A stretch of 64,000 nucleotides of DNA from an uncultured Gammaproteobacteria bacterium (GTDB lineage: Bacteria; Cyanobacteriota; Vampirovibrionia; LMEP-6097). A program made the translations under genes and the position numbers. Within the stretch, counting starts at the first letter, position 1; each line of letters starts with the position of its first letter. Below, piece by piece: positions 1,990-58,164 of this stretch. Under the pieces are notes generated by a model that saw only the letters and a list, made by a program, of their open reading frames with translations, was not told the origin of the DNA and did not search any database. The stretch lies in NCBI GenBank assembly GCA_964517685.1, contig CAZFCF010000001.1:345458-409457 (forward strand), given 5' to 3'.

Positions 1990-3501
1990 ATGTTAGATCA
2001 ATTAGAAAGCAATTTTAACCACAATATAGACCAAAATAGTAGCGAGCAAAGCGAATATTCATCAATAAGCATCAAAAGCTCAGAAGATTCTGAAAATATA
2101 GTTATAGAAAATGGCTATATCGAGCTTTGGCAACAGGTTCTTGAATATCTAGAGAAAAAACTCAGAAAACCCAGCTTTGATACGTGGATCAGACCAACAC
2201 AGCTAATCAAGATCGAAAGCGACACAGCAACGATTGCAGTGAAAAATGAGTTCACTAGAAACTTTCTGCTCCAAAGCTATTACAAAGAAATACAAGAGGC
2301 ATTAAAAGAAATTCTGGCTAAATCTATAGCTATAAAATTTATAGTTCTTATAGATTTAGAAATCCCTGAAAACCAGTCAATATCTAATGTTGAAAATGAG
2401 AAAAATTTTAACGATAAGCAAATTAGTCTTGCGGAAATAAAAACACCTAATAGTTCTTACAAGAAACATTCGACTAAACTCAACAGTAAATTCAATTTTC
2501 TAAATTTCATACTTGGTAAATCTAATCAAGCACCTTATACTTTTGCAAAAGCAATCACTGAAAGCAGTTCAGGAGTTTATAGTTCTCTATTTATACATTC
2601 AGATACAGGTCTGGGTAAAACTCATTTATTGCATGCCATTGGCAATCAAGCTCAGGAACTGCAATACGGGCTCAAAGTTAAATACGTTAAAGCTGAAGAC
2701 TTCACAAACGAACTTATAGTTTCCATTCAACGCAACAACACTGCACAGTTTAGATCTAATTACAGAAACTTAGATTTATTACTTTTCGATGATTTTCATT
2801 TTCTTGATAACAAAAAAACCTGCCAAGAAGAGTTTGCATTCACCCTAGAATCCATTATTGAAAATGGTGGCAAAGTAGTAATGTCTTCAGCAAAAATGAT
2901 TGAAGAGTTTAAAACTCTTTCAAATAAACTCAAAAGTAAAATTCGTGGTTCTTTAATCTCAACTATAGAGAAACCCAATTACACAACACGTTTAAAAATC
3001 CTTTCAGAGAAAGCTAATATCTCGCAAATTCAAATCAACGAAGAACATTTAGGATTTATAGCGGGTAAATTCGAGAACAATGTGCGTGAGCTTGAAGGTG
3101 CATTAATGCAAATATCCGCCTTTAAGAATTTTGCAGGTGAAAGTATTGATGATGATCTTATAGCTAATCTCTTTGGGGGTATTGCGCCAGAACCGGAATA
3201 CAAAGGTTTATCAATAGAAAAAATCACCAAGAAAGTCGCAGAATTTTATGACTGTGATTTATCGGAGCTTATCGGCAAGTCAAGAGTTAAAGAAATAGCT
3301 AACGCACGACATCTTGCTATCTATTTAGCTCATACAATTTTGAGACTGAGTTATACAAGAATCGGTGATTATTTTGCTGGAAGAAAGCATAGTTCAATAA
3401 TTCATTCTGCTTCGATGGTGAGAAAAGATATTAATTCAGATAACTCTAATAGTAATTATAAATACGCAATAGAACAAATTAAAAAATCTCTATCCGTCTA
3501 A
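1990..3501 (+). CDS. dnaA: Chromosomal replication initiator DnaA.
   Basis: Walker A GLGKTHLLHAIGNQ, an AAA+ core and the C-terminal DnaA DNA-binding signature ANARHLAIYLAH...RIGDYFAGRKHSSIIHS. The N-terminal ~60 aa is an extension; the true start may be internal. Confidence 0.9.
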   Translation: MLDQLESNFNHNIDQNSSEQSEYSSISIKSSEDSENIVIENGYIELWQQVLEYLEKKLRKPSFDTWIRPTQLIKIESDTATIAVKNEFTRNFLLQSYYKEIQEALKEILAKSIAIKFIVLIDLEIPENQSISNVENEKNFNDKQISLAEIKTPNSSYKKHSTKLNSKFNFLNFILGKSNQAPYTFAKAITESSSGVYSSLFIHSDTGLGKTHLLHAIGNQAQELQYGLKVKYVKAEDFTNELIVSIQRNNTAQFRSNYRNLDLLLFDDFHFLDNKKTCQEEFAFTLESIIENGGKVVMSSAKMIEEFKTLSNKLKSKIRGSLISTIEKPNYTTRLKILSEKANISQIQINEEHLGFIAGKFENNVRELEGALMQISAFKNFAGESIDDDLIANLFGGIAPEPEYKGLSIEKITKKVAEFYDCDLSELIGKSRVKEIANARHLAIYLAHTILRLSYTRIGDYFAGRKHSSIIHSASMVRKDINSDNSNSNYKYAIEQIKKSLSV

Positions 3502-4637: not shown

Positions 4638-6722
4638 ATGTCCGTCTTATTTGCATCACTTGGCATAATTTTTGGATCCCTTTATTTTGTAATTGGTGAT
4701 AATCGAGTTATGCTTGCAGCTTTAGTTGCATTCGTAATATCAAGTGCAGTCTTTACCACTCTTAGACATCGTCGCAAAGAAATCATTAGTTTTCTAGTTT
4801 TTTTCTTATTGATGTTTTTTAATTACAACCTGAGATCAGACTTTTTAGAGGTTTTTGACTTAGAGCAATATATCACCACAAACAAGTCACAGCTTTACTT
4901 TCAAATAGTAAGCCCACCTCGTAATAGAGTTTTCTATTCTGAATTTATAGTTCAAGTAAAAAATAAAAACAGAAAGTTCAGTAATATAGTCAAAGATATT
5001 TTCCTGCCTTATAGATTCTTAGCTAAAGCCCCTGCTACTTTAGGATTGGCAGAAGCTGATATAGTTGCCATTCAAGACCTTTCGCTCCATAGATTAGATC
5101 GATATAGATACAGAATCTACAAGAAAAACAAAGTCTTTAATGAATCAGAAACTAAGAGTATAAGTTTTGTTGCTTCTGAAGACAATATATTTACTAAGGT
5201 ACAAAACTCTATTAAAGAATATTTCTTTAGAAATCTAAGTTTCGAAAATGCTCAAATCGCCAGCAGCTTACTTCTTGGAGCTAAAACAGCAAGCCCTCCA
5301 GAAGAGTTTTCTAGGATTTCCTACAAACTCGGTATAGGTCATTTCTTGGCAGCATCAGGTTTTCAGCTCGTAGTTTTAGGGTTTTTAATAAACTCTATTT
5401 TCAAAACTCTCAAATTCAATCTCTATGTCACTAATTTAACAACCTTAGTATTAGTTCTGTTTTATGCGGGTCTAGCAGGGTTTAGTCCTTCTATAACTCG
5501 TGCAGCTATTTGCGTTGCTGTATTTTTACTCTTGCAACTTAGTAAGCGTAAAATGGATAGTAAAAGATTTTTACTAATACTGGCTGGAATAGTTTTATTT
5601 ATTGATCCCTACACTGTTTTAGACTTAGGCTTTCAATTCAGCTATCTAGCTACATTAGCTCTATTAATTTGGACTTCAACTATAGAGAAGAAACTTGAAT
5701 TTATTAAACCTAAATTCATTCGCGAAGGGGTGGCTATAACGCTTTCAGTACAGTTATTCTTGCTACCTTTATCAATTTATTACTTTGGAAATTTACAAAT
5801 CTGGAGTATCCTTGCCAATATAATTCTTACACCAATCTTGACTCTAATTACTTTACTTTCATTCTTTGGTCTATGTTTCCTTATTGAACCGCTTTTAAAT
5901 TTAACTAAATACTTGGTCTATCATGCCAACCAATTACCAGGTCTAGATTCTGCCTATGATATGGATTTCTCAAGTATGGTACTTATGACTTTATTTCTTA
6001 ATATGCTTGCCTTTGCAATCATAAGACCTAATATTAATACTCCAAATGATGCTGAGTTCATGAAAACTATTTATACACGCTATTACGATGAGAATATTTT
6101 TTTATTCTTGAAAAAAATATTTACTGACCCTTGTATGCAAATCAGTGTGCTAGTTTCTACTTTGGCTTTGCTTTTAGCAACTAGCCTGCCTCCATACAAC
6201 ACTGTTGTATTGCCTATTGAAAATGGCTTGATTAAAAATTTCCCTGCACTTAAGCAAGTAATGAAGGATAAATCAATTAATTCTCAATATCTTGATTATC
6301 AAGATTTGAAAATATTACTAATTAAGAATCGTAGTTCACTTAAGAAGTTAGGAACTCTGACTGGCAATCTACAAGAAGTAGATATTTTAATTTTGCCGCA
6401 GTTAAATGAAAAAGATATTTATTTAAATACTCTAATAGAAATTACTAAACCACAGTTTGTTGTTGCTTCAGTCAGGAGGAGTCATAGTAAAAAACAAATG
6501 CCGTCATCGCGAAGCCGCGAAGCGGCTGTGGCTGTCATTGCGAGCGAAGCGAAGCAATCCCCCGGCGCTCAAAATGGGATTGCCACGTCGCCTTCGCCTC
6601 CTCGCAATGACGACACAAATAAGGTGGATTCTAATTTGAAAATTATTACTGGAAAGGCTCACACCGTTATAGATTCAGGTGTATTATACATAAGTAAAGG
6701 AAAATTTTGGAGTCTCAATTAA
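4638..6722 (+). CDS. ComEC/Rec2-like polytopic membrane protein (competence/DNA-internalisation family). It carries an in-frame GC-rich palindromic insertion.
   Basis: Many TM helices; motif GIGHFLAASGFQLVVLGFL resembles the ComEC GxxHLLAISGLH motif. Residues ~615-665 (SVRRSHSKKQMPSSRSREAAVAVIASEAKQSPGAQNGIATSPSPPRNDD) are encoded by the 6498-6613 palindromic element. Confidence 0.55.
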   Translation: MSVLFASLGIIFGSLYFVIGDNRVMLAALVAFVISSAVFTTLRHRRKEIISFLVFFLLMFFNYNLRSDFLEVFDLEQYITTNKSQLYFQIVSPPRNRVFYSEFIVQVKNKNRKFSNIVKDIFLPYRFLAKAPATLGLAEADIVAIQDLSLHRLDRYRYRIYKKNKVFNESETKSISFVASEDNIFTKVQNSIKEYFFRNLSFENAQIASSLLLGAKTASPPEEFSRISYKLGIGHFLAASGFQLVVLGFLINSIFKTLKFNLYVTNLTTLVLVLFYAGLAGFSPSITRAAICVAVFLLLQLSKRKMDSKRFLLILAGIVLFIDPYTVLDLGFQFSYLATLALLIWTSTIEKKLEFIKPKFIREGVAITLSVQLFLLPLSIYYFGNLQIWSILANIILTPILTLITLLSFFGLCFLIEPLLNLTKYLVYHANQLPGLDSAYDMDFSSMVLMTLFLNMLAFAIIRPNINTPNDAEFMKTIYTRYYDENIFLFLKKIFTDPCMQISVLVSTLALLLATSLPPYNTVVLPIENGLIKNFPALKQVMKDKSINSQYLDYQDLKILLIKNRSSLKKLGTLTGNLQEVDILILPQLNEKDIYLNTLIEITKPQFVVASVRRSHSKKQMPSSRSREAAVAVIASEAKQSPGAQNGIATSPSPPRNDDTNKVDSNLKIITGKAHTVIDSGVLYISKGKFWSLN
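6498..6613. repeat. GC-rich palindromic element (RPE-like), complete copy inside comEC, in frame.
   Basis: caaatgccgtcatcgcgaagcc...tgtcattgcgagcgaagcgaagcaatcc...ggattgccacgtcgccttcgcctcctcgcaatgacg. GC is far above the local background. Left and right halves are mutually complementary. Confidence 0.8.
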
Positions 6723-9413: not shown

Positions 9414-9625
9414 ATGAAAGTTTAATTGGTTTATTAAAAGGTTTTGGTATGTTCTTTATGATGATAGGTTTTTTAGTATTTATTGGCAGACCTGTCAATA
9501 AAATGGCTTTTAAAAAAGAACTAGAACAAGAAAAGGCTATGAATCTTAAGGGAAAAGGTTGGTCATTAGAACGTTGGTTCTTTTGTGATATTTTAGCTTT
9601 TCCGAAAAAAGATTTTATGAATTAA
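9410..9625 (+). CDS. Small hypothetical membrane protein, 71 aa.
   Basis: Hydrophobic segment FGMFFMMIGFLVFIG. ORF track only. Confidence 0.25.
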   Translation: MNESLIGLLKGFGMFFMMIGFLVFIGRPVNKMAFKKELEQEKAMNLKGKGWSLERWFFCDILAFPKKDFMN

Positions 9626-12255
9626 CTAGCAACCACGTTAACTAATTTCTCTGGAACCACTATAACTTTCTTCACACTCAAGCCTTCAATACGCTTTTGC
9701 ATTTTAGTATTAGCTAAAGCAAGCTTTTCAATAGCAGCCTTATCCATTGATTTCTCAACTTCAATAACATCTATCTTTTTACCCATGAATTGAATCACGA
9801 GATTATAGCTATTAGTTTCTAGATACTCATCTTGATATTGAACCCATTTCTGTATATGTACTGAATTAGCTTTCATAAATTCAGCAGAGAAATCTTCATT
9901 AGTATTTTTCAGTAAAACCATTTCAAACCACAACTCTTCAGCTAAATGTGGAGTAAATGGAGAAAGAATTTTAATAAAGTTAAAAAGTACATGACGGAGA
10001 ACTTTTTGATCTTCTTCATCAAAGGTACTAGCAGATTCATTTCTAGCGTTTATATATTTGTACATTGAATTGATAAATTCGAACATTCTAGAAATAGCAG
10101 TATTAAAACCATTTCTTTCAGGATCTAAATCATTAGTAATCGCTTTAAGTGCTTGATGAAAAGCTCTAAGAATATCTGCATTATCAGATTCAAGCTCAGC
10201 TACGTTTTCATTAAAAGCAAATTCATAATTAGTAGTTTCTACTTTTAGTGTGTCTTTCAGTTGTTCGAAGAGACGCCATACTCTAGAAACAAATCTAAAT
10301 TGACCGATAGCAGCTTCATCTTGCCACTCTACTTCTGCTTCTACTGGAGCTGCAAAGAGAATAAATAATCTAGCTGCATCGGCACCATACTCATCGAAGA
10401 AATCATTAGTACCAACCACATTGCCGCGTGATTTAGACATCTTTGCTATCTTGCCTTCAGTCTCTGAATATTTCACCACCATACCTTGTGAAAGTAAGCG
10501 AGTGAAAGGTTCATCATAGTTCAGTAAACCACAGTCCCTAAGAGCCTTAGTGAAGAATCGAGAATAGAGTAAATGGAGAATTGCATGTTCTATACCACCC
10601 ACATATTGATCAACAGGAAAAACTTTATCCTTAGCAAAAGGTAAATTTAAATTATGCGCATCAGGATATCTCAAAAAATACCAACTACTACACATAAAGG
10701 TGTCCATAGTGTCAGTAATTCTTTTGGCTTTTTTACCAGTAGTCGCGCAAGTAGTTTCATACCACTCTGGACTATTTGCAAGTATAGAACCACCATCAGA
10801 CTTAGCTTTAGCAAAATCTATGTCGAGTGGAAGCTTTACAGGAAGCTGTTCATAAGGCACTGGATTAATTTCCCCATCTTCAGTTTCCACTAAAGGAATT
10901 GGACAACCCCAATAGCGTTGCCTGCTTATAAGCCAATCTCTCAATCTATAAGTAGTTTTGAAATCAGCAAAGCCTTTAGCCTTGCCCCACTGAACTATTT
11001 TAGTTTTAGCAGTTTCATTATCTAAGCCATTGAATTCACCACTGTTAACCAAAGTTCCAGTGCCAGTGTAAGCTGCTGTCATTGCGAGAAGGGCGGAGCC
11101 CGACGAAGCAATCCCATTGTGGTGACTTGAAGACCCATCTTCACCCTGAATAACCTCTTTCATTGGTAACTTGAATTCTTTAGCAAACTCAAAATCTCTT
11201 TCATCATGCGCAGGAACCGCCATCACTGCACCCGTTCCATAATCCACTAAAGCATAATCTGCAATCCAAACAGGAATTTTTTCGTTGGTAAAAGGATTGA
11301 GACAATAGGCACCAGTAAAGCAGCCAGTTTTTTTTCTACCTTCTGCTGTCCTTTCAATCTCTGTAAGTGACGCAGTTATAGTAATGTAATCAGCAATAGC
11401 TTTTTTCTGAGCTTCAGTACTTAGCTTAGCTACAAGCTTATGTTCGGGAGCCAAGACCATATAAGTCACTCCCATAATGGTGTCAGGTCTAGTAGTAAAA
11501 ACTTTAATTCTTTCGCTAGTAGCTTTGCCTTCAGCATCAAGAATAGGAAAATCAATTTCTGCACCTTGAGATTTACCAATCCAATTACGTTGCATTAGTT
11601 TTACGCTACTAGGCCAGTGTTCAAGCTTATCCAAGTCCGTGAGCAGTTCTTCTGCATAAGCAGTGATCTTCAAGAACCATTGTTTCATCATGCGTTTCTT
11701 GACTTCAGTGTTACCATGACGCCAACATTTACCATCTTCTACTTGCTCGTTTGCAAGCACAGTATTACATTCAGGACACCAATTAACAGGAGCTTCTTTC
11801 TGGTATGCAAGACCTTTATCATAAAGTTTTAGAAATAAATATTGAGTCCATTTGTAGTAATCTTCTCTACAAGAAACTACTTCCCTGTCCCAGTCATAAC
11901 TAGTGCCCATGCGCTTGAGCTGTTCATCACGCATATAACGAATATTTTCTTCAGTCCATTTACCTGGATGAATATTACGTTCGATAGCTGCATTCTCTGC
12001 AGGTAAACCAAAGGCATCAAAGCCCATAGGATTCAAGACATTAAAACCTTGCATTCTTTTGTAACGAGAAATTACATCTGAGATCGTATAAACGCGCATA
12101 TGTCCCATGTGGAGATTGCCACTAGGATAAGGAAACATCACTAGAGAATAAAACTGTTCTTTATTTTTCTCATTTTCATCATACTGATAGAGCTTGGCTT
12201 TTTCCCAAAGCCTTTGCCATTTAGTTTCAATGTTTTTTGGATTATATTCAGACAT
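9622..12255 (-). CDS. leuS: Leucine--tRNA ligase, with an in-frame GC-rich insertion.
   Basis: PYPSGNLHMGHMRVYTISDVISRY (HIGH region) and KMSKSRGN. 877 aa. The GC-rich element at 11076-11128 encodes EDGSSSHHNGIASSGSALLAMTAA within the protein. Confidence 0.9.
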   Translation of the reverse strand: MSEYNPKNIETKWQRLWEKAKLYQYDENEKNKEQFYSLVMFPYPSGNLHMGHMRVYTISDVISRYKRMQGFNVLNPMGFDAFGLPAENAAIERNIHPGKWTEENIRYMRDEQLKRMGTSYDWDREVVSCREDYYKWTQYLFLKLYDKGLAYQKEAPVNWCPECNTVLANEQVEDGKCWRHGNTEVKKRMMKQWFLKITAYAEELLTDLDKLEHWPSSVKLMQRNWIGKSQGAEIDFPILDAEGKATSERIKVFTTRPDTIMGVTYMVLAPEHKLVAKLSTEAQKKAIADYITITASLTEIERTAEGRKKTGCFTGAYCLNPFTNEKIPVWIADYALVDYGTGAVMAVPAHDERDFEFAKEFKLPMKEVIQGEDGSSSHHNGIASSGSALLAMTAAYTGTGTLVNSGEFNGLDNETAKTKIVQWGKAKGFADFKTTYRLRDWLISRQRYWGCPIPLVETEDGEINPVPYEQLPVKLPLDIDFAKAKSDGGSILANSPEWYETTCATTGKKAKRITDTMDTFMCSSWYFLRYPDAHNLNLPFAKDKVFPVDQYVGGIEHAILHLLYSRFFTKALRDCGLLNYDEPFTRLLSQGMVVKYSETEGKIAKMSKSRGNVVGTNDFFDEYGADAARLFILFAAPVEAEVEWQDEAAIGQFRFVSRVWRLFEQLKDTLKVETTNYEFAFNENVAELESDNADILRAFHQALKAITNDLDPERNGFNTAISRMFEFINSMYKYINARNESASTFDEEDQKVLRHVLFNFIKILSPFTPHLAEELWFEMVLLKNTNEDFSAEFMKANSVHIQKWVQYQDEYLETNSYNLVIQFMGKKIDVIEVEKSMDKAAIEKLALANTKMQKRIEGLSVKKVIVVPEKLVNVVAS
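11076..11128. repeat. Partial RPE-like element inside leuS, in frame.
   Basis: gctgtcattgcgagaagggcggagcccgacgaagcaatccc shares the left half with the 6498 and 56229 copies. Confidence 0.65.
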
Positions 12256-12304: not shown

Positions 12305-12520
12305 CATTAAGCCTTATTAAGCGTAATAATTGATATGAATACGAGATGAGGCAAATGAAGCTTGGTTAGCAAATCAGCTGGGCGCGAAGTTTAAGGAATA
12401 TAAAGTTTTTTAATAATTTTTTTTATTCGCGAAGCGTGTTTCAAGCCCAGCTCGATTTGCTCCAAGCGTAATGAAGTTGAATCCGTATGAAATATCACAT
12501 TACGCTATAAGGCTTAATAA
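12305..12520. repeat. Nested palindromic element: outer inverted repeats plus an inner GC-rich palindrome, between the leuS start and the ABC-permease gene end.
   Basis: Outer arms cattaagccttattaagcgtaataa (12305-12329) and cattacgctataaggcttaataa (12497-12520, inverted). Inner arms gcttggttagcaaatcagctgggcgcgaag (12357-12389) and cgcgaagcgtgtttcaagcccagctcgatttgctccaagc (12428-12467). Confidence 0.6.
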
Positions 12521-16888: not shown

Positions 16889-18208
16889 TTAGTACTCAGG
16901 GAACCTGTCGTCTCCAGTATCATCGTCGTCGTCAGGGTTTTCGTTATATTCTTCAACATCTTCATCGTCTTCGAAGTCTTCGTCTTCTTCCTCTTCGACT
17001 TCTTCTTCATCTAGATCTTCAACATCATCTTCAAGGTCATCATCTTCTTCCTCAAGATCATCAGAATCATCATCTAGATCTTCATCAGGATCATCTAAAT
17101 CATCATCACCCAGCATAAGTTCTGCTTCTTGATCACTAAAATCGTTAGCACCTAATTCTTTACTATCTTGGCTTTCTAGTTCTAAAATAGACATGGTTTC
17201 ATCCTCTAAATCGATATTGTCAATAATATTATTATCCACATTTTCGCCATGTTGCAACAGGTAATCTTCTAAACTTAAATTTTCGAAATCAAGGTCATCT
17301 AATGGGTCAATTTTGACTTCTATTAAGCCTTCTAGAAGCTCGTTTTTAGGCTCAATCATTGGGTCTTTTAAGGGTTTTATCTCATAACCTAAATAACGTC
17401 CTAAGACCTCTTTTAATACTTTTATTTGACCACTGAAAGATGCGTCAAGACGACCACCTTGAGTATTTACAATACAAGAGCCTTGATCGATACTTTCATC
17501 TTTTTGAAAAACTAATTTTATGGAAGGATCGAGCACTTTTAACAAGGCTTTTTCCAGGAAAGCAACTTTATCAATATCCTTTGGATGTAAATAAATTTGC
17601 ATAATACCTTTGGCGGTAACAACTTTAGAAATAGCTCTTTCTACTTGAGTTTGCAAGACTTCATCATTAGTTTCAACTTCATATCCAAGGATTTGATTAA
17701 CTAAATCAAAAGCAATGGACATAATTTCTTTTTTGGATTCTTCAATTACATTTTTCTTAGCATGATGAAAAGTTGCGAGATAATTCATTAGCTCAGCAAT
17801 GATCTCTGAAGCTTTAGACATTCCCTCTTCAAAGGATTGTTTAAGTTCTTGTTCTTTTAAAATTACAATTTGATTTCTTTCATTTTCAAGTAATTTTTTA
17901 GTATCATAAATTTCAATCTCAGCAGTTTTTTTATAGGCATTAGCCTCCTCAACAATAGTTGCAGCCTCAGTTTGAGCCTCTTGGATCATTTGCTGTATTT
18001 CTTCTTCAGCATGAGATTTTTTAACAGCAATCTCCCTATTGAATTCCTCTAATAATGCTTCAGATTTTTTTTGTACTAAAGATTGAGCTTGATTCTCAAT
18101 TTCTTGAGTAATAGGATTATTGAAATTAAAACCAGAGTTAGAAATAGCAGTAGCTTTAGTAACAGGTACTACAATCTCCTTTACTGTTTTTTTCTTCTTT
18201 ATTAACAT
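16889..18208 (-). CDS. fliH: Flagellar assembly protein FliH (SctL family) with a ~170-aa poly-acidic C-terminal tail.
   Basis: N-terminal Glu/Ala/Gln-rich coiled coil. C-domain GSCIVNTQGGRLDASFSGQIKVLKEVL matches the FliH/YscL C-terminal block. Residues ~270-439 are >60% Asp/Glu. Confidence 0.6.
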   Translation of the reverse strand: MLIKKKKTVKEIVVPVTKATAISNSGFNFNNPITQEIENQAQSLVQKKSEALLEEFNREIAVKKSHAEEEIQQMIQEAQTEAATIVEEANAYKKTAEIEIYDTKKLLENERNQIVILKEQELKQSFEEGMSKASEIIAELMNYLATFHHAKKNVIEESKKEIMSIAFDLVNQILGYEVETNDEVLQTQVERAISKVVTAKGIMQIYLHPKDIDKVAFLEKALLKVLDPSIKLVFQKDESIDQGSCIVNTQGGRLDASFSGQIKVLKEVLGRYLGYEIKPLKDPMIEPKNELLEGLIEVKIDPLDDLDFENLSLEDYLLQHGENVDNNIIDNIDLEDETMSILELESQDSKELGANDFSDQEAELMLGDDDLDDPDEDLDDDSDDLEEEDDDLEDDVEDLDEEEVEEEEDEDFEDDEDVEEYNENPDDDDDTGDDRFPEY

Positions 18209-23790: not shown

Positions 23791-23920
23791 CGCCGTCATT
23801 GCGTCAACTTAGGCTCAAATGCCGTCATCGCGAAGCCTCGAAGAGGCTGTGGCGATCCAGTCTACCAACTATTCCAATTGACTGGATCCCCAGCTTGCTA
23901 CGCAAGCCGAGGATGACGCC
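23791..23920. repeat. RPE-like GC-rich palindromic element, intergenic.
   Basis: cgccgtcattgcg...caaatgccgtcatcgcgaagcctcgaagaggctgtggcgatccagtctacca...gactggatcccc...cgcaagccgaggatgacgc. Confidence 0.8.
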
Positions 23921-25198: not shown

Positions 25199-26047
25199 AT
25201 GCTTCCAAAAGCAATAATCACCGGTGGTACAGGTTATATAGGTTCTAACTTACTAGAGAATTTAACAGAATTTGATATTACTGTTTGTGATAGAACTCTC
25301 AAAAGAGAGAATTTATCCAAGCCTGAATTATACAAATATATTCAAATTGATTTATGCCAAGAGTTCAAATCAAAAGAATTTGAGCAAGCTATTCTTGATT
25401 CACAAATAATTATTCATAGTAGTTTTTTAGGAAATTTTGCCAATGAAAAAAATTTTATTGACTATGTGGCAAAAAGAAATCCACAAATTAAATTTGTTTA
25501 TTTATCCAGCGCTGCAGTTTATGGTGATCTTGAAGCAGAGTATAAAGAAAATTCTCACGCTAGTTTTTCAGAAGGGTCTATCTGTAAACCAATCAATGAC
25601 TACGGTAGAACCAAGCTAGTTTGCGAAGATTTAGTAAAAAATACTTTTGCTAATTATCTCATTATACGAATTGCTAATCCCTTTGGCAAAGAAGTTTCTA
25701 ATAAAGGTATGTATAAACTTTTTAAAACTAAACTGGAAGCAGGTGAGCGTAAATTAGATCTCAATGCAGATTTTCCCGGACAAATTATCAGAGATTTTAT
25801 TTATATAGATGAGCTTTGCAAACAAGTTAGCAACTTGATTACTAACCAACAGACAGGTGTATTTAACATTAGTTCAGGCTCTGGTAGAACACTGGAAGAT
25901 TTAATTCAAGAACTTGCGCAAAGTTTAAATATCAATTACCAAGATATAGAACTTAATTATGCTGATCATAAAGTAGATGAAATTAAAGTATCTATATTGG
26001 GGTCGTACTTCAACAAGCAACAAAAATCAAATAAGCTTCTAGAATAA
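25199..26047 (+). CDS. NAD-dependent epimerase/dehydratase (SDR family).
   Basis: Rossmann motif ITGGTGYIGSNL near the N-terminus. Confidence 0.65.
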   Translation: MLPKAIITGGTGYIGSNLLENLTEFDITVCDRTLKRENLSKPELYKYIQIDLCQEFKSKEFEQAILDSQIIIHSSFLGNFANEKNFIDYVAKRNPQIKFVYLSSAAVYGDLEAEYKENSHASFSEGSICKPINDYGRTKLVCEDLVKNTFANYLIIRIANPFGKEVSNKGMYKLFKTKLEAGERKLDLNADFPGQIIRDFIYIDELCKQVSNLITNQQTGVFNISSGSGRTLEDLIQELAQSLNINYQDIELNYADHKVDEIKVSILGSYFNKQQKSNKLLE

Positions 26048-26097: not shown

Positions 26098-26098
26098 G

Positions 26099-32004: not shown

Positions 32005-32040
32005 AATTAAACCAGTCAATCAGAAGTTCTTAAGTAGACT

Positions 32041-32106
32041 GGATTGCCACGTCGGACTTCGTCCTCCTCGCAATGACATGGATCCTTACGCTTCGCTCAG
32101 GATGGT
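32041..32106. repeat. RPE-like element, right half, at the junction of the ankyrin-gene insertion.
   Basis: ggattgccacgtcggacttcgtcctcctcgcaatgacatggatccttacgcttcgctcaggatgg. The last 30 nt are identical to the ddl insert at 41133-41163. Confidence 0.7.
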
Positions 32107-35087: not shown

Positions 35088-35355
35088 ATGAGTCTTAAAA
35101 GCATAATGTGATCTTCATATAGATTCGACTTCATTCCACTTGGAGCAAATCAAGCTTCTTTCTTCTCATCTCATATTACGATCAATATTACGCTTCTAAG
35201 ACTCATTATCAATATAGTTATCATTTCCAAGAGCCTCTCCGAAAAGCTCCCAGATGCTAGGCTTGCGAGTCCCCGAGGAGCCGGAGTTTACTTAGCGTAA
35301 ATGAGGACGACGAGGGGCGAGCGTAACAACGCAGATGGGACTTTGCGGAAGGCTC
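35088..35355. repeat. Composite palindromic element: an AT-rich hairpin followed by a GC-rich palindrome of a different family, intergenic.
   Basis: atgagtcttaaaagc (35088-35102) pairs with gcttctaagactcat (35192-35206). gagcctctccgaaaagctcccagatgc (35231-) pairs with gcagatgggactttgcggaaggctc (-35355). Confidence 0.55.
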
Positions 35356-40491: not shown

Positions 40492-41499
40492 ATGGACAAA
40501 TCAATCATAGTAATTTGCGGTGGACTTTCAGAAGAAAGAGAAGTTTCATTAAGATCTGGAGCAAATGTTCATAGTGCCTTACAGAGACTAGGTTACGCTA
40601 ATGCTGAGTTATTTGATTTCAAAGATTATAATTCACTTTCTGATCTAGTTGAAAAAAAACGCCAAGGAAAATTTGATCAAGCTTTCTTACTTACTCATGG
40701 TACTTATGGTGAAGATGGTTGTATTCAAGGTTTTATGGAATTACTGGGTGTACCGTATACCGGTTCAAAGGTTGAAACTAGCGCTATTTGCATGAATAAG
40801 ACTCGTACTAAAGAAATTCTTAGTGCGCATAATTTACCAATATTAAAAACTTATTTAGCTAAAGAAGTATATGAAGGTTCGACTGATCTAGATGCCAATA
40901 CGGAAATAATCCTCAAACCTAGTGTCGGCGGTTCTAGTGTCGGCATTACCAAATTCAATTCTCAAGCTGAATTCAAGAATTTTATAGATGCAAATATTCA
41001 AGTTAAAAATGAAATTGAAAAATATTTCATTGAGAAATTTATTCGTGGTACTGAAGTAACTACAAGTATTATTGAAGCAAACTTGGAGATGATCACAGAG
41101 AATAAGAATCATTGTAAGGCTTTGCAAAGAACTGGATCCTTACGCTTCGCTCAGGATGACGGGACTATAGTTTCATTACCTATATTAGAATTACGTCCTA
41201 AAAACGAATTCTACGATTATGAAGCTAAATATACTAAGGGCATGACTGAGTTTGTTTTGCCTGCGGAGATAAGCACAGAACTAGAAGAAGCAATTCATAC
41301 CTATGCCCTGGAAGCCTTTCATCAATTAGATTGTAAGGGTGCAGCTAGAGTTGATTTTATTATCGATGGTAAAACTAATAAGCCTTATATTCTTGAAGTT
41401 AATACTTTACCTGGCATGACTGATACAAGTGATTTACCTGCGCAAGCTAAAGCGGCAGGGATTAGTTACGATGAGCTGGTGAGAATTATTCTTTCTTAG
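40492..41499 (+). CDS. ddl: D-alanine--D-alanine ligase, with a small in-frame GC-rich insertion.
   Basis: ATP-grasp Ddl blocks (IIVICGGLSEEREVSLRSG; EVNTLPGMT). TGSLRFAQDDGTIV is encoded by the GC-rich fragment at 41133-41163. Confidence 0.85.
   Translation: MDKSIIVICGGLSEEREVSLRSGANVHSALQRLGYANAELFDFKDYNSLSDLVEKKRQGKFDQAFLLTHGTYGEDGCIQGFMELLGVPYTGSKVETSAICMNKTRTKEILSAHNLPILKTYLAKEVYEGSTDLDANTEIILKPSVGGSSVGITKFNSQAEFKNFIDANIQVKNEIEKYFIEKFIRGTEVTTSIIEANLEMITENKNHCKALQRTGSLRFAQDDGTIVSLPILELRPKNEFYDYEAKYTKGMTEFVLPAEISTELEEAIHTYALEAFHQLDCKGAARVDFIIDGKTNKPYILEVNTLPGMTDTSDLPAQAKAAGISYDELVRIILS
41133..41163. repeat. Short RPE-like fragment, in frame in ddl.
   Basis: ggatccttacgcttcgctcaggatgacggg. 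Confidence 0.6.
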
Positions 41500-43501: not shown

Positions 43502-43506
43502 TAGCA

Positions 43507-43609
43507 AATGCCGTCATCGCGAGCCAGCGAAGCTGGCGTGGCGATCCAGTCTGCCACAAGCTTTAATCAGTTCTGGATCCCTACGTCGCTTCGCTCCTCA
43601 GGATGACGA
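43507..43609. repeat. RPE-like GC-rich palindromic element abutting the truncated xerD-like gene.
   Basis: aaatgccgtcatcgcgagccagcgaagctggcgtggcgatccagtctgccaca...ctggatccctacgtcgcttcgctcctcaggatgacgac. Confidence 0.8.
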
Positions 43610-51041: not shown

Positions 51042-51185
51042 GATTTAATTACCTTCCGTTTTATCGAATCCTCACTTGATATTAAAAGGATAATGATAGG
51101 GAAATTTTGACAGGTAAACCCTTAATCAGGTATTAACTATTAAGTATCAACTTGGAGTTCTGTCTTCTAAAAAGCTTATGGTAGG

Positions 51186-51222
51186 CTGGATTGCCACGCC
51201 GCTTCGCGGCTCGCAATGACGA
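51186..51222. repeat. RPE-like fragment, right half, intergenic.
   Basis: ctggattgccacgccgcttcgcggctcgcaatgacga. Confidence 0.6.
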
Positions 51223-54453: not shown

Positions 54454-57363
54454 TTATGAGATTGCCATCAATTCATCTTCAAAGATTTTTTTCTTATTAC
54501 TAACTTCATCCAGATTAGCTTTCAGTTCTTCTATCTTTTCAGGAGAAGCATTCTTAATAAAGCCATCAGAGCTAAGTCTTGAGTTTAGAACTTTAATATC
54601 AGCATTAAGTTTCTCAATTTGCTTTTTGATTTTCTCTGAGAGCTTATTGAGATCTACAATGCCACTTAAAGGAACTATAACTTCAATTCCAGAAATTTGA
54701 TTTTTGAAAGCAGGCTTAGCATCTACAGTATTAGACTCAAAACTTACTTTACTTAATTTCACTGGATTCTTTATATATTCACTAAAGTTCTCAAGCTTAG
54801 ATTTCAAAGCCTGATCTTTAATTACTAAAATCACCTCAAAATTCACTGACCATGGGATATCTAGAGACTGACGAATATTACGCAAGTTACCAATTAGATC
54901 TTTAATAAGTTCTACAGTGCTATTAGCTTCTGAGAAATTAAAATTCTCTGCTTTAGGATAGCTTGCAAAACAAATTGATTTAGTCTCAGCATTATCAATC
55001 GCAGAAAAATCATACTTAGCTTTTAGCTCTTGCCAAATCTCTTCAGTGATAAATGGAGCAATTGGATGTAAGGCTCTTAAAGACGCTTCAAGAATATAAA
55101 AGAGAATTTGTTTTTGGCTAGATTTATCAGCACTATCTATCTTAGTAAATTCAATATACCAATCACAAAAATCGAACCAAGTAAACTCATAGATTAGCTT
55201 TTGGATCTTGGTTAGATCATATCCCTTAAATGCTTCATCAATTTCAGCAAGCACTTTAGAGAATTTAGTTAAAACCCATTTATCAGTTTCAAGTAAGTTA
55301 CTAGTGTCTAATTTGCTCATGACTGCAGGCTTAAAAGTTCCACCGTCATCTAGCTTAGTCATCACAAACTTAGTTGCATTAAAAAGCTTGTTACAGAATT
55401 TACGATACTGCTCAAATGTATCAGAGAACCAAGCTTCGTTCTGATCTTTACGACCAGGGAATTTTACATCTTGTTGTCCATGAATACCGACGCTGGCATA
55501 CCAAAGACGACTAGCATCAGCGCCATATTTACTAACCATCTCTAAAGGATCAATAGCATTGCCTTTAGACTTACTCATACGTTTACCATCAGGTGTTTGC
55601 ACAACTGGATGAATCAATATATCTGAGAAAGGCTGCTTACCATTTTCAAAATATATACTTGAGAAAATCATTCGCGTCACCCAGAGATTAATGATCTCTC
55701 TTGCAGTTGCAAGCACATCAGTCGGGTAGAATTTTTCAAAAACTTTTTGATCGAAGTCTGTAGTCTCAAGCTCACCTTTAGCAGACTTCAAGGTCTCAAA
55801 CGGCCAGAGTGCACTACTAAACCAAGTATCAAGTACATCATCATCTTGCCTATGATCTAGTTCTCTAGCTTTTTCAGCAGCATAGTATCTAGTCACCAAG
55901 CCTGATTCATCATCGGCAGGGTTTTCTTTATCGTTAAAAGGATTAGGAGTACCAGCATTCGTCTCATAATAGAAAACTGGAATTCTATGTCCCCACCAAA
56001 TCTGACGGCTTACACACCAGTCTTGAATATTTTCAAGCCAGTTTTTAAAAATCACATTATATCTTTCTGGAGTGAATTGCGATTTACCAGAAGCAACTAA
56101 ATCGAGTGACTTTTGAGCTAGACCTTGCATTGCTAAGTACCACTGTTCACTTAGATAAGGTTCGATTTCAGTATTGCAACGATCGTGAAGGTCTTTTTCT
56201 TGGTCGTATTCTGTAGTTTGCACAAGTACGTCATTGCGAGCAGAGCGTGTCATTGCGAGCGGAGCGAAGCAATCTCCCTGCATAGACTGGATCGCCACGC
56301 CCTGCTGCGCAGGACTCGCCATGACATTTTTGTTGTCACTGTGACCAAGTAAAGCAAGAACCTTCTCTCTTGCAGCATACCTATCAAGCCCAGTCAACCC
56401 AAGGCTTTCAGGGATCTCTGGGCAAGCTTTCATCTTGGCTTGTTTATCCATAATTATTGGTTTATCTAAGCCATGTTTTTTACCAATCTCGAAATCATTA
56501 GCATCATGTGCTGGAGTAACTTTTAGGGCACCAGTACCAAAGTCGGTCTTCACATGCTCATCAAGAATCACAGGAATTTCTTTATTGCTAAGTGGGATTA
56601 AAACCTTAACTGAATCAGGAGCGTTTTTAATTTGTTTAATCAAACCAGAGAATCTCTCATCATTAGGATTAATCGCAACTGCCACATCACCAAACATAGT
56701 CTCTGGACGGGTTGTAGCGACAGTAATTGATTCATTAGAATCTTTGATTTGGTATTTAATTTCGTAAAGTTTTTTCTTAGTTGTTTCTTTTGCAATTTCC
56801 AAATCCGAAAGTGAAGTAAGACATTTAGGACACCAATTCACTACACGATTACCGCGATAAATTAGTCCATCATTGAAATATTTAATAAAAGCATTCTGCA
56901 CCGCTGAAGCGTAGTGGTCATCCATGGTGTAGCGAATACGTTTATAATCTGGACTAAAGCCCAAGACTTTCATTTGCTCAATGATTTTATTACCGTAGTC
57001 TTCTTTCCAAGCTTTCACTCGCTTGAGAAATTCTTCTCTACCTAGATCTTCTTTTCTTTTGTGTTCGGTTTGCTTGAGATTTTTCTCAACCACCAGCTGA
57101 GTACCGATACCAGCATGATCAGTACCAATTTGCCAAAGCACATCTTTACCAAGCATACGGTTGTAACGAATTAGAATATCTTGGATAGTGCCACCCAAGG
57201 CATGACCCATATGTAACTCGCCAGTCACATTCGGTGGTGGCAAAGCAATAGAAAAACTTTCAGTATTTTCACGGACAGTGGTATCAAAAATACCTTGCTC
57301 AAGCCAATTTTTCATCCATTTGCTTTCGATTTCTATTGGTGAATATTGTTTGCTTGCGTCCAT
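54454..57363 (-). CDS. valS: Valine--tRNA ligase, with an in-frame GC-rich insertion.
   Basis: PPPNVTGELHMGHALG and KMSKSKGN, plus a C-terminal coiled coil. The element at 56229-56326 encodes ...NKNVMASPAQQGVAIQSMQGDCFAPLAMTRSARNDV... Confidence 0.9.
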   Translation of the reverse strand: MDASKQYSPIEIESKWMKNWLEQGIFDTTVRENTESFSIALPPPNVTGELHMGHALGGTIQDILIRYNRMLGKDVLWQIGTDHAGIGTQLVVEKNLKQTEHKRKEDLGREEFLKRVKAWKEDYGNKIIEQMKVLGFSPDYKRIRYTMDDHYASAVQNAFIKYFNDGLIYRGNRVVNWCPKCLTSLSDLEIAKETTKKKLYEIKYQIKDSNESITVATTRPETMFGDVAVAINPNDERFSGLIKQIKNAPDSVKVLIPLSNKEIPVILDEHVKTDFGTGALKVTPAHDANDFEIGKKHGLDKPIIMDKQAKMKACPEIPESLGLTGLDRYAAREKVLALLGHSDNKNVMASPAQQGVAIQSMQGDCFAPLAMTRSARNDVLVQTTEYDQEKDLHDRCNTEIEPYLSEQWYLAMQGLAQKSLDLVASGKSQFTPERYNVIFKNWLENIQDWCVSRQIWWGHRIPVFYYETNAGTPNPFNDKENPADDESGLVTRYYAAEKARELDHRQDDDVLDTWFSSALWPFETLKSAKGELETTDFDQKVFEKFYPTDVLATAREIINLWVTRMIFSSIYFENGKQPFSDILIHPVVQTPDGKRMSKSKGNAIDPLEMVSKYGADASRLWYASVGIHGQQDVKFPGRKDQNEAWFSDTFEQYRKFCNKLFNATKFVMTKLDDGGTFKPAVMSKLDTSNLLETDKWVLTKFSKVLAEIDEAFKGYDLTKIQKLIYEFTWFDFCDWYIEFTKIDSADKSSQKQILFYILEASLRALHPIAPFITEEIWQELKAKYDFSAIDNAETKSICFASYPKAENFNFSEANSTVELIKDLIGNLRNIRQSLDIPWSVNFEVILVIKDQALKSKLENFSEYIKNPVKLSKVSFESNTVDAKPAFKNQISGIEVIVPLSGIVDLNKLSEKIKKQIEKLNADIKVLNSRLSSDGFIKNASPEKIEELKANLDEVSNKKKIFEDELMAIS
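56229..56326. repeat. RPE-like element inside valS, in frame, with a duplicated left end.
   Basis: cgtcattgcgagcagagcgtgtcattgcgagcggagcgaagcaatctccc...gactggatcgccacgccctgctgcgcaggactcgccatgaca. Confidence 0.8.
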
Positions 57364-58152: not shown

Positions 58153-58164
58153 TAGGTAAATTGA

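What the first reader, a model, noticed from the sequence alone, without database searches (positions are those of the whole stretch)
6498..6613. GC-rich palindromic elements related to RPEs inserted in frame in protein-coding genes across the window
At least nine copies or fragments of one GC-rich palindromic repeat superfamily are present. The consensus left end is caaatgccgtcatcgcgaagcc / tgtcattgcgagcgaagcgaagcaatcc and the right end is ggat[tc]gccacg...ctcgcaatgac / ggatcc.tacg.cttcgctc.aggatgacg. Four copies sit inside open reading frames without breaking them: comEC-like 6498-6613, leuS 11076-11128, ddl 41133-41163 and valS 56229-56326. They add 10-45 residues of Ala/Ser/Gly/Arg-rich peptide. 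This behaviour, selfish palindromic DNA tolerated inside housekeeping proteins, is classically described for Rickettsia palindromic elements. Here the element sequence and the genomic context look different: flagellar genes, minCDE, bioB and ispD are all present.
Basis: partly seen in the sequence, partly recalled or inferred. Interest (0 to 1): 0.8.

Follow-up and report, generated by a model that had tools for sequence, protein, structure and literature searches.

The report
Hairpin repeats inserted in-frame in genes
A low-GC, flagellated relative of cyanobacteria (Melainabacteria) carries GC-rich hairpin-forming repeats, four of them sitting in frame inside essential genes as in Rickettsia, and the repeat belongs to a family found across many bacterial phyla.

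Summary
The window holds 8 loci (about 15 hairpin "arms") of a GC-rich palindromic repeat; the motif GTCATYGCGA occurs 10 times against 0.08 expected. Four loci lie inside intact ComEC, LeuS, Ddl and ValS genes.

Close orthologues show these are recent insertions. A 92%-identical ValS and a 90%-identical Ddl have empty sites. ComEC orthologues at 58% identity or less lack the segment. The ComEC and ValS sites carry different element content in genomes only about 10% diverged, so turnover is fast.

The host is not a Rickettsia. Best named protein hits are Melainabacteria/Caenarcaniphilales.

The element is not lineage-specific. Units with the same termini (GTCATTGCGAG…CTCGCAATGAC) occur in Bradyrhizobium, sphingomonads, Tisiphia/Rickettsiaceae, Coxiellaceae, Bacteroidota, Chloroflexota, Patescibacteria, Planctomycetota and cyanobacteria. 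Some sit in frame in GuaA and UvrA.

The unit is one arm: GTC-ATnnn-GAG-(mini-hairpin, often C-GNA-G)-n'n'n'AT-CC. The closing stem covaries within an arm, independently of the partner arm.

No target-site duplication, linked transposase or GTAG signature was found. I read it as a non-autonomous REP/dRS3/RPE-like selfish hairpin repeat: a new member of a known kind. The mobilising enzyme is unknown.

The parts
4638..6722 (+). ComEC/Rec2-like gene, host of the insert named in the finding
   Evidence: Pfam Competence domain and TIGR00360. The ORF is intact.
6495..6532 (+). Truncated type-A left arm (CAAATGC-CGTCATCGCGA-AGCCGC GAA GCGGCT-GTGGC), in frame in ComEC
   Evidence: The same 5' 22 nt occur at 23816 and 43505. 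It folds as its own hairpin.
6533..6613 (+). Complete type-B element: left arm 6533-6560, loop, right arm 6576-6613. It codes VIASEAKQSPGAQNGIATSPSPPRNDD in ComEC.
   Evidence: Arm HMM E = 1.8e-9 and 2.5e-6. ssDNA fold z = -5.0. It is 75-81% identical to Novosphingobium, Methylosinus and Aulosira copies. It is absent from ComEC orthologues at 58% identity or less, and present in decayed form in the 81%-identical orthologue.
9622..12255 (-). leuS, host gene
   Evidence: TIGR00396, 1014.7 bits, full length.
11076..11116 (+). Single type-B arm (TGTCATTGCGAG-AAGGGCGGAGCCCGAC-GAAGCAATCC), read on the minus strand as GIASSGSALLAMT in the LeuS editing domain
   Evidence: Arm HMM E = 2.7e-6. There is an 11-12 residue gap at this point against T. 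thermophilus LeuRS 1H3N/2V0C.
23816..23920 (+). Complete type-A element, intergenic, just 3' of the acetolactate synthase small-subunit gene. A short fragment CGCCGTCATTGCG lies at 23791-23803.
   Evidence: It folds as a four-way junction, z = -5.7.
32036..32078 (+). Single type-B arm (right-arm orientation), intergenic between convergent genes
   Evidence: Arm HMM E = 4.6e-6.
32079..32106 (+). Single type-A arm (GGATCCTTACGCTTCGCTCAGGATGG). It supplies the last codons and the TGA stop of ORF 32097-32951(-).
   Evidence: 91% identical to the Ddl copy (family D14). Translation ends ...IYKYQLPS*.
40492..41499 (+). ddl, host gene
   Evidence: NF002378, 302 bits.
41131..41163 (+). Single type-A arm in Ddl, an exact 30-nt (10-codon) insertion coding about QRTGSLRFAQ
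   Evidence: The site is empty in the 90%-identical orthologue at DNA level (L187) and in the 85-88% orthologues. In the AlphaFold2 model the only segment with pLDDT below 50 is residues 216-221, a coil between two strands.
43505..43608 (+). Complete type-A element between a convergent ABC permease gene and a XerC/D-like recombinase gene
   Evidence: fold z = -5.35. The orthologous site in L187 holds a different variant with both-sided changes in the closing stem and an unrelated inner hairpin.
51184..51222 (+). Single type-B arm, intergenic
   Evidence: Arm HMM E = 4.4e-7. It folds as an ATTGC...GCAAT-closed hairpin.
54454..57363 (-). valS, host gene
   Evidence: NF004349, 977 bits, full length.
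56229..56327 (+). Partial arm (56229-56247) plus a complete but decayed type-B element (56248-56327), read on the minus strand as NVMASPAQQGVAIQSMQGDCFAPLAMTRSARNDV in ValS
   Evidence: Arm HMM E = 2.9e-9 and 4.7e-4. There is a ~35 aa gap against T. thermophilus ValRS 1GAX. The site is empty in the 92%-identical orthologue and holds a single arm in the 87% orthologue.
35233..35349 (+). A different GC-rich imperfect palindrome (type C), intergenic. It is included because a relative carries it in frame at the ComEC hot spot.
   Evidence: 82.6% identical over 109 nt to L128 2647-2753, inside that genome's ComEC. No Rfam match.

Best explanation
These are copies and half-copies of a non-autonomous, hairpin-forming selfish repeat in a Caenarcaniphilales-like melainabacterial genome.

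The building block is one arm of about 27-40 nt: GTC, then a 5-bp closing stem (ATTGC...GCAAT in type B; ATCGC...GCGAT or ATCCY...RGGAT in type A). The stem encloses GAG, a variable mini-hairpin that is often a C-GNA-G triloop, and CGAA. The arm ends in CC. Two arms in inverted orientation around a variable loop make the 70-105 nt palindrome.

Shown:
- Arms occur singly, as inverted pairs and in tandem.
- They sit at gene 3' ends and inside genes.
- They appear, disappear and are replaced at the same sites among genomes about 10% diverged.

Inferred:
- They spread and turn over through the folded single-stranded form of the arm. An enzyme supplied in trans (a site-specific or ssDNA recombinase/transposase not encoded nearby) would recognise it, helped by recombination between copies.
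- In essential genes, only insertions that fall in a tolerant loop, add a multiple of three bases and use one of the two stop-free frames per orientation survive selection. That filter leaves the in-frame Ala/Ser/Gly/Arg-rich loops in ComEC, LeuS, Ddl and ValS.
- The inserts themselves are probably neutral passengers that then decay.
For: Repeat is real and structured:
- 10 motif hits against 0.08 expected; ssDNA folds z = -5 to -6; type A folds as a four-way junction; single arms fold as closed hairpins.

Recent insertion and turnover:
- ValS: full element in the window, one arm in the 87% orthologue, empty site in the 92% orthologue.
- Ddl: exact 30-nt insertion against the 90% orthologue.
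- ComEC: type B in the window and in the 81% outgroup. In the two ~90% relatives there is instead a full or remnant type-C element. Nothing is present at 58% identity or less.
- The intergenic copy at 43505 is replaced by another variant in L187.

The arm is the unit, with structural constraint on it:
- In L015, L044 and L084 the two arms differ but each keeps its own complementary stem: CCCT/AGGG with TTCT/AGAA, TCCT/AGGA with TTCT/AGAA, and TCGC/GCGA with TTGC/GCAA.
- 17 of 91 non-canonical arm candidates have perfectly complementary triplets, against about 1.4 expected.
- The orthologous 43505 copy changed on both sides of the stem.
- The inner segments are enriched for hairpins: stems of 5 bp or more in 12% against 1% of shuffles. 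45 of 113 carry C-GNA-G.

Non-autonomous:
- No transposase family among the 44 window ORFs scanned.
- No recurrent neighbour gene in 120 loci.

Frame filter:
- 4 of 6 frames are open in the modal copy.
- In-frame copies occur in GuaA, UvrA and other ORFs of unrelated low-GC genomes.
- In the Ddl model the insert is the only low-confidence coil.

Breadth:
-.
Against: - No mobilising enzyme was identified, and no transposition intermediate or clean junction rule was found. There is no target-site duplication, and flanks beyond YC|...|GR are unconserved.
- The strong sequence conservation of the stems across phyla is unusual for selfish repeats. It could point to a conserved host function instead.
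- Many covariation cases are few in number and were picked by a regular expression, so they are not independent samples.
- Translation of the inserts is assumed from intact ORFs only.
- The LeuS insertion was checked only against distant solved structures.
Confidence: 0.75

Rival explanations
1. REP/REPIN system: the arms are REP sequences and the inverted pairs are REPINs. A single-copy RAYT (HUH tyrosine transposase) elsewhere in the genome would mobilise them.
For: - Arms occur as singlets, inverted doublets and tandem clusters, and sit at 3' ends of genes.
- Covariation in the stems points to a hairpin being recognised.
- RAYT homologues exist in cyanobacteria, Chloroflexota, Neisseria and Legionella records.
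Against: - The arms lack the GTAG/CTAC signature.
- In Neisseria gonorrhoeae and Gloeocapsa the RAYT gene is flanked by GTAG-type REPs, not by GTCAT-type arms, although GTCAT/dRS3-type arms are abundant in the same Neisseria record.
- No Y1 transposase was found among the 44 window ORFs scanned.
- Half of the loci are intragenic.
Confidence: 0.12
2. Classical MITE: a deletion derivative of an insertion sequence, moved by a DDE transposase that binds the GTCATTGCGAG terminal inverted repeats.
For: - There are 11-13 bp terminal inverted repeats.
- The size is 70-105 nt and there are many dispersed copies.
Against: - No target-site duplication at any of 126 copies or at the empty/filled pairs.
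- Single arms are common.
- Internal stems are as conserved as the termini.
- Each arm covaries on its own.
- No parent IS with these ends was seen in 120 loci.
Confidence: 0.08
3. Host-function element: the hairpins are kept because they act as transcription terminators, mRNA 3' stabilisers or binding sites of a conserved protein. The intragenic copies would be by-products.
For: - All intergenic copies lie just 3' of a gene, and three of the five intergenic loci (type C included) lie between convergent genes.
- The stems are conserved across phyla.
Against: - There is no T-run after the hairpins.
- There is no Rfam family.
- Orientation relative to transcription is not fixed.
- Copies are gained, lost and swapped between close relatives, and the in-gene copies decay without compensation.
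Confidence: 0.15
4. No dedicated enzyme: copies spread and are exchanged only by homologous recombination or gene conversion between dispersed copies and incoming DNA, as proposed for neisserial NIME arrays.
For: - Different element types and variants occupy the same site in close relatives.
- Arms form mosaic tandem arrangements.
- A ComEC uptake gene is present.
- Bentley 2007 (PMC1797815) proposes recombination at dRS3.
Against: - Recombination alone does not create new sites inside unique genes such as ddl or valS.
- Arms are too short (27-40 nt) for efficient RecA-dependent exchange.
Confidence: 0.12
5. The segments are ancestral parts of the proteins, or assembly artefacts.
For: - A ~20 aa extension next to the Ddl insert is indeed ancestral to the clade.
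Against: - Sites are empty in 85-92%-identical orthologues.
- The identical proteins are on independent assemblies.
- The same DNA sequence occurs in intergenic places and in other phyla.
Confidence: 0.02

Closest known systems
Rickettsia palindromic elements (RPE, especially RPE-4/-6/-7) and Wolbachia palindromic elements
   Same: - GC-richer palindromic repeats in an AT-rich genome, inserted in frame in housekeeping genes such as tRNA synthetases.
- The added peptide lies in a loop.
- Different element groups sit at the same site in orthologues (PMC3767692).
- ATGAC forms part of the palindromic ends.
- Elements with identical termini are present in Tisiphia and Rickettsiaceae genomes.
   Different: - The host is a flagellated melainabacterium, not an obligate intracellular alphaproteobacterium.
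- Units are shorter (70-105 nt, and single 27-40 nt arms).
- The encoded peptides match no NCBIfam family.
- Sequence kinship to the curated RPE consensus sequences was not tested directly.
REP sequences, REPINs and BIMEs with RAYT transposases
   Same: - Short imperfect-palindrome units occur singly, as inverted doublets and in mosaic clusters.
- They sit at gene 3' ends.
- The stems covary.
- They are non-autonomous.
   Different: - No GTAG/CTAC signature.
- RAYT genes examined are flanked by other repeats.
- Half of the loci here are intragenic.
- Near-identical stems occur in many phyla, whereas REPs are lineage-specific.
Neisseria dRS3 repeats and NIME arrays
   Same: - dRS3 is ATTCCC-N8-GGGAAT (PMC1797815).
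- In N. gonorrhoeae it is flanked by GTC...CC, exactly like the arms here: CGTCATTCCCGCGCAGGCGGGAATCC.
- It forms arrays, is dynamic between strains, and has been proposed as a recombinase target.
   Different: - The stem sequence (ATTGC, ATCGC or ATCCY) and the spacer length (12-22 nt with a mini-hairpin) differ.
- NIME arrays were described as confined to Neisseria and intergenic.
- Here arms form palindromic pairs and enter genes.
Bacterial MITEs that fuse to ORFs (ERIC, BOX, Coxiella QMITE1, Anabaena MITEs)
   Same: - Small non-autonomous repeats that can make in-frame fusions (PMC10969869; PMC3184786).
   Different: - Those have target-site duplications and a parent IS or defined inverted-repeat ends. 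Neither was found here.

Membership tests
RPE (Rickettsia palindromic elements) | Dispersed palindromic repeat of roughly 100-150 bp | tested here: met
   There are 8 loci in 64 kb. Complete copies are 81-105 nt with strong ssDNA folds. They are shorter than classical RPEs.
RPE (Rickettsia palindromic elements) | Inserted in frame in protein-coding genes without disrupting them | tested here: met
   ComEC, LeuS, Ddl and ValS are intact and full length. Empty sites exist in close orthologues.
RPE (Rickettsia palindromic elements) | Inserted peptide lies in a solvent-exposed loop | tested here: met
   In the Ddl AlphaFold2 model, residues 216-221 are the only segment with pLDDT below 50, a coil between two strands. 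The ValS and LeuS inserts fall in gaps against solved structures. Exposure itself was not computed.
RPE (Rickettsia palindromic elements) | Sequence similarity to one of the RPE-1 to RPE-10 consensus sequences | tested here: inconclusive
   No NCBIfam hit for the six-frame peptides. The shared ATGAC terminus is reported for RPE-4/-6/-7. Same-terminus elements occur in Tisiphia and Rickettsiaceae.
RPE (Rickettsia palindromic elements) | Host is Rickettsia (or Wolbachia for WPE) | tested here: not met
   Best named ValS and Ddl hits are Melainabacteria/Caenarcaniphilales. Flagellar genes and b/b' ATP synthase genes are present.
REP/REPIN-RAYT | Short imperfect palindromes occurring as singlets and inverted doublets | tested here: met
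REP/REPIN-RAYT | Conserved GTAG (CTAC) tetranucleotide at the foot of the hairpin | tested here: not met
   The termini are YCGTCAT...ATGACGR.
REP/REPIN-RAYT | A RAYT gene flanked by the repeats | tested here: not met
   None among the 44 window ORFs scanned. Neisseria and Gloeocapsa RAYT genes are flanked by GTAG-type REPs. The rest of this genome could not be read.
Neisseria dRS3/NIME | 20-bp unit ATTCCC-N8-GGGAAT | tested here: not met
   The arms here are ATTGC-N12-22-GCAAT and variants. The architecture and the GTC...CC flanks are the same, but the sequence differs.
Neisseria dRS3/NIME | Arrays of units separated by variable spacers, dynamic between strains | tested here: inconclusive
   There are small tandem or mosaic groups at 6495-6613, 32036-32106 and 56229-56327. 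Turnover between relatives was seen. No long arrays occur in this window.
Neisseria dRS3/NIME | Target of a Piv/IS110-type recombinase | not testable with these tools
   No such gene was found among the 44 window ORFs scanned. This needs the whole genome and experiments.
MITE (DDE transposase-dependent) | Terminal inverted repeats | tested here: met
   11-13 bp termini.
MITE (DDE transposase-dependent) | Target-site duplication | tested here: not met
   The flank logo over 126 copies and three empty/filled comparisons show none.
MITE (DDE transposase-dependent) | Parent insertion sequence with the same ends | tested here: not met
   No recurrent transposase-like neighbour in 120 loci.

The most novel reading that the evidence does not exclude
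The GTC-ATnnn-...-n'n'n'AT-CC arm is the recognition module of one ancient, still unidentified recombinase or ssDNA transposase system. That system would operate in many bacterial phyla. Rickettsia RPE-4/-6/-7, Wolbachia WPE, Neisseria dRS3/NIME and the elements here would then be local faces of a single pan-bacterial mobile hairpin superfamily that repeatedly remodels loops of essential proteins.
Probability: 0.2. Interest if true: 0.8.

Novelty: new member of a known kind. Interest (0 to 1): 0.55.

Why it matters
In-frame palindromic insertions in essential genes have mostly been treated as a curiosity of Rickettsia and Wolbachia, tied to intracellular life. Here the same behaviour appears in a flagellated, non-photosynthetic relative of cyanobacteria. 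Empty, half-filled and filled sites occur among genomes only about 10% apart, which gives a natural series for studying how such inserts arise and decay.

The element also shares its ends and its arm architecture with repeats in a dozen phyla, and with the neisserial dRS3 unit. If that kinship is real, several separately named repeat families have a common mechanism. The unknown enzyme could then be sought by comparative genomics.

There is a practical side too. These repeats generate spurious short ORFs and unexpected loops in aminoacyl-tRNA synthetases, Ddl, UvrA and GuaA, and annotators and structure modellers should expect them.

Tried and rejected
- Rfam: no family at gathering score in the window. 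Only chance-level matches at E up to 10 on the elements. No tRNA or tmRNA.
- NCBIfam on six-frame peptides of the elements: nothing.
- Literature search for the terminal strings: only primers turned up.
- The metagenome scan with the type-A 5' 18-mer gave mostly chance hits in high-GC coding DNA. Only about six were real elements, and none came from a close relative. It served only to show that ATCGC...GCGAT variants exist elsewhere.
- Search for a linked gene: all-against-all comparison of ORFs from 120 loci gave only ABC transporters, response regulators and dehydrogenases.
- RAYT hypothesis: E. coli RayT was used as a tblastn query against plasmids. Homologues were found, but their flanks carry GTAG-type REPs.
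- Rickettsia plasmid pRF could not be fetched, and no Rickettsia plasmid matched in blastn.
- My first reading of a 30-aa Ddl insert, taken against E. coli-type DdlB, was wrong. Twenty of those residues are a clade-wide extension.
- The apparent CAAAT direct repeats flanking type-A copies were dropped as a target-site duplication. The left CAAATGC is part of the element, and the right ACAAAT in ComEC is host sequence shared with L126.
- A fixed-format arm alignment for a formal pair count gave too few variant arms to be useful. A looser regular expression mis-terminated many arms.
Full report
**1. What is in the sequence**

The window is AT-rich, 29-39% G+C in 2-kb windows. A 30-nt G+C scan and motif searches pick out eight sharply GC-rich loci that share sequence.

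Two related element types are present.
- Type B reads TGTCATTGCGAG-x-CGAAGCAATCC, a loop, then GGATTGCCACG-x'-CTCGCAATGACG.
- Type A reads CAAATGC-CGTCATCGCGA-x-GTGGCGATCCAG, a loop, then CTGGATCCYTACG-x'-CAGGATGACG.

The complete copies are 6533-6613 (B), 23816-23920 (A), 43505-43608 (A) and 56248-56327 (B, decayed). The other loci are single arms or mosaics:
- 6495-6532: an A left arm abutting the B element.
- 11076-11116: a B arm.
- 32036-32078 plus 32079-32106: a B arm and an A arm in tandem.
- 41131-41163: an A arm.
- 51184-51222: a B arm.
- 56229-56247: a partial arm.

The 10-mer GTCATYGCGA occurs 10 times against 0.08 expected from shuffles. An HMM built from arms of other genomes finds seven B arms at E<1e-3. 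Complete copies fold as single-stranded DNA far better than shuffles, z = -5 to -6. The type-A copy at 23816 folds as a four-way junction. Single arms fold as hairpins closed by ATTGC/GCAAT.

**2. The host genes are intact and the segments are insertions**

ORFs 4638-6722(+), 9622-12255(-), 40492-41499(+) and 54454-57363(-) are uninterrupted. They score as full-length ComEC-like, LeuS, Ddl and ValS.

*ValS.*
- There is a 46-residue stretch where T. thermophilus ValRS has 11.
- The 92%-identical orthologue P0002 has nothing there.
- The 87% orthologue P0003 has only RHCEERSDEAIQ, which is one arm (CGTCATTGCGAGGAACGAAGTGACGAAGCAATCCAG).
- The window has a full element plus a partial arm, 39 residues more than P0002.

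*Ddl.*
- Most of the extra length against E. coli-type DdlB is a clade-wide extension.
- The element part is exactly 30 nt. It is absent from the 90%, 88% and 85% orthologues and from the DNA of L187.
- In an AlphaFold2 model (mean pLDDT 90.9), the only segment below 50 is residues 216-221, inside the inserted peptide. It is a coil between two strands.

*LeuS.* A single arm read as GIASSGSALLAMT coincides with an 11-12 residue gap against T. thermophilus LeuRS, in the editing domain. No close orthologue could be examined.

*ComEC.* All orthologues at 58% identity or less lack about 46 residues.

The identical proteins, inserts included, are on independent ENA, NCBI and Logan contigs. This rules out an assembly artefact.

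**3. Turnover at fixed sites**

At the ComEC site:
- The window carries A-arm plus B.
- The 81%-identical outgroup L126 carries one decayed B element in the same frame.
- One ~90% relative (L128) carries a different GC-rich palindrome.
- The other ~90% relative (L127) carries only a remnant of that palindrome.

That third element (type C) is 82.6% identical over 109 nt to an intergenic sequence of the window, 35233-35349.

The intergenic type-A copy at 43505 is matched in L187 by another variant at the same place. Its closing stem has changed on both sides (ATCGC/GCGAT to ATCCT/GGGAT). Its inner hairpin is unrelated (GCCAGC-GAA-GCTGGC against GATCAC-GTA-GTGATT).

So elements are gained, lost and replaced within about 10% protein divergence, and certain sites are hot spots. 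Matsutani et al. describe the same pattern for RPE-4/-6/-7 in Rickettsia (PMC3767692).

**4. Who is the host**

The best named hits of ValS and Ddl are Candidatus Melainabacteria, Caenarcaniphilales, Gastranaerophilaceae and Obscuribacterales. The window also carries dnaA, FlgH, FliH and FliF genes, and paired ATP synthase b/b' genes as in cyanobacteria. It is not a rickettsial genome.

**5. The element is not private to this lineage**

- blastn against plasmids finds full-length type-B relatives (75-81% identity) in Novosphingobium, Methylosinus, Methylocystis, Halomonas and Aulosira. Partial matches occur in Methylobacterium, Legionella lytica and Calothrix.
- The hits came from Bradyrhizobium, sphingomonads, Candidatus Tisiphia, Rickettsiaceae and Rickettsiales MAGs, Coxiellaceae, Legionellales, Micavibrio, Pedobacter, Mucilaginibacter, Flavobacterium, Chloroflexota, Patescibacteria, Planctomycetota, Margulisiibacteriota, Microcoleus, a Clostridiaceae MAG and two contigs of a Candidatus Caenarcanales MAG.
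- The inner motifs CGAAGCAATCC and GGATTGCTTCG were not part of the pattern, yet they are conserved in nearly all hits. The segments x and x' and the loop vary freely.
- Beyond one or two bases (YC|...|GR) the flanks are unconserved, and there is no target-site duplication.
- Most copies have 2-4 of 6 frames open. In each orientation the single TGA lies in GCAATGAC.
- In other low-GC genomes, copies sit in frame in GuaA (L038), UvrA (L044, peptide VIASKAKQSHSTGSANNGIATSPLAPRNDN, the same frame as in the window's ComEC) and two further ORFs.

**6. Anatomy: the arm is the unit**

Among 236 arms, x is most often CGNAGCG. This gives GCGNAGC, a two-base-pair stem with a GNA triloop, with N = C, A, T or G. 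From my own knowledge of the literature (Hirao and colleagues, not retrieved here), d(GCGNAGC) is an unusually stable DNA mini-hairpin, more so than the RNA equivalent. That hints at a single-stranded DNA form. Longer x segments are enriched for hairpins of unrelated sequence.

The five-base stem that closes each arm covaries within the arm and independently of the other arm:
- L015: CCCT/AGGG in one arm and TTCT/AGAA in the other.
- L044: TCCT/AGGA and TTCT/AGAA.
- L084 (Tisiphia): TCGC/GCGA and TTGC/GCAA.
- L111: CTC/GAG in both arms.
- The window's type A: ATCGC/GCGAT on the left and ATCCY/RGGAT on the right.

Of 91 non-canonical arm candidates, 17 have perfectly complementary triplets, where about 1.4 are expected. 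These cases are few and were selected by pattern, so they are indicative rather than a formal test.

A sister variant with ATTCC/GGAAT stems is common in Azospirillum, Legionella, Cupriavidus and Neisseria records. In N. gonorrhoeae it reads CGTCATTCCCGCGCAGGCGGGAATCC. That is the 20-bp dRS3 unit of neisserial NIME arrays (Bentley 2007, PMC1797815), with the same GTC...CC flanks as here.

**7. What moves it**

Nothing in the window does. Pfam scans of 44 ORFs found no transposase family. A XerC/D-like tyrosine recombinase gene ends 3 nt from the copy at 43505 and is syntenic in L187, but nothing ties it to the repeat.

No gene recurs next to the element in 120 loci.

The REP/RAYT model was tested with E. 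coli RayT as a query. Homologues exist in Neisseria, Gloeocapsa, Kovacikia, Chloroflexota and Legionella records. Those inspected in Neisseria and Gloeocapsa are flanked by GTAG-type REPs, not by GTCAT-type arms.

The absence of duplicated flanks and of a parent IS argues against a DDE-type MITE.

I therefore commit to the following. The elements are non-autonomous selfish repeats. Their arm, folded as a hairpin, is the substrate of a trans-acting recombinase or ssDNA transposase that remains unidentified. Recombination between copies contributes to replacement at occupied sites. Selection then filters insertions in essential genes to those that keep the frame and fall in tolerant loops.
- Shown: the existence, insertion, turnover, arm architecture and frame properties.
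- Inferred: the enzyme and the single-stranded intermediate.

**8. Comparison with what is known**

In behaviour this is the RPE phenomenon (Ogata 2000 and 2002, as summarised in PMC10969869). It resembles the RPE-4/-6/-7 group most closely, through the ATGAC ends and through different groups sharing a site.

Membership of the named RPE families is not shown. The encoded peptides hit no NCBIfam model and the host differs.

In architecture it is closest to REP/REPIN and to dRS3/NIME, but it fails a defining feature of each: GTAG with a flanking RAYT, and the ATTCCC-N8-GGGAAT sequence.

**9. Verdict**

The finding is real and correctly read by the first stage. It is a new member of a known kind: palindromic selfish repeats that enter genes in frame. 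Two things make it more than routine. The host is a melainabacterium with clear filled, half-filled and empty alleles. The arm module is shared across many phyla, which may link several separately named repeat families. Interest 0.55.

Noticed in passing
window 35233-35349; L128 2647-2753: A third GC-rich imperfect palindrome (AAAGCTCCCAGATGCTAGGCTTGCGA...GGCGAGCGTAACRACGCAGATGGGACTTT) is intergenic in the window. In a ~90% relative it lies in frame in ComEC, at the same site where the window has the A+B elements. It has no Rfam match.
   Followed up: partly
window 12449-12491 and 35114-35156: A 43-52 nt motif (TTCATA..GATTC.ACTTCATT.C.CTTGGAGCAAATC.AGCT), about 85% conserved, lies a few bases 3' of two unrelated genes. 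It has the same orientation relative to each gene. It may be a 3'-UTR element or small RNA. The 35114 copy has no Rfam hit.
   Followed up: partly
window 30441-30516 and 32090-32165: An 80%-identical duplicate of the 3' end of ORF 32097-32951(-) sits in the spacer upstream of ORF 30526-32004. The intact ORF takes its last codons and TGA stop from the type-A arm at 32079-32106.
   Followed up: partly
window 51260-52279 and 52343-53446: These are tandem paralogous genes, with repeat families spaced 1122-1140 nt apart. Neither has a Pfam match. The large ORFs 27284-29506, 45155-48097 and 48132-51041 also match nothing.
   Followed up: no
window 16926-17107: Nine overlapping copies of an acidic (Asp/Glu-rich) coding repeat lie inside the FliH-like ORF 16889-18208(-).
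   Followed up: no
window 1990-3501 and about 57000-58700: dnaA lies near the left end of the window. However, cumulative GC skew reaches its minimum around 57-58 kb, at the divergent valS/ileS-like gene pair. The replication origin may not be next to dnaA.
   Followed up: no
window 25986-26110: There is a 49-nt inverted repeat (80% complementary, 27-nt loop) spanning the ends of two convergent genes, an epimerase and IMPDH. It looks like a bidirectional terminator.
   Followed up: no
window 43611-44411: A XerC/D-like tyrosine recombinase gene ends 3 nt from the type-A element at 43505-43608. Gene order and an element at that spot are conserved in the relative L187.
   Followed up: partly
plasmid record NZ_CP076395.1 (Sphingopyxis indica) 30815-30891: An ATTCC-stem relative of the arm pair lies under the annotated ileS gene. 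This suggests in-gene copies also occur in free-living alphaproteobacteria.
   Followed up: no
L188 (Neisseria gonorrhoeae NZ_CP119142.1) and L190 (Gloeocapsa pGLO7428.01): RAYT homologues are flanked by GTAG-type REP hairpins. In Neisseria a cluster of dRS3 units with GTC...CC flanks sits about 150-270 nt upstream of the same gene. The gonococcal record is chromosome-sized (2.17 Mb) although filed as a plasmid.
   Followed up: partly
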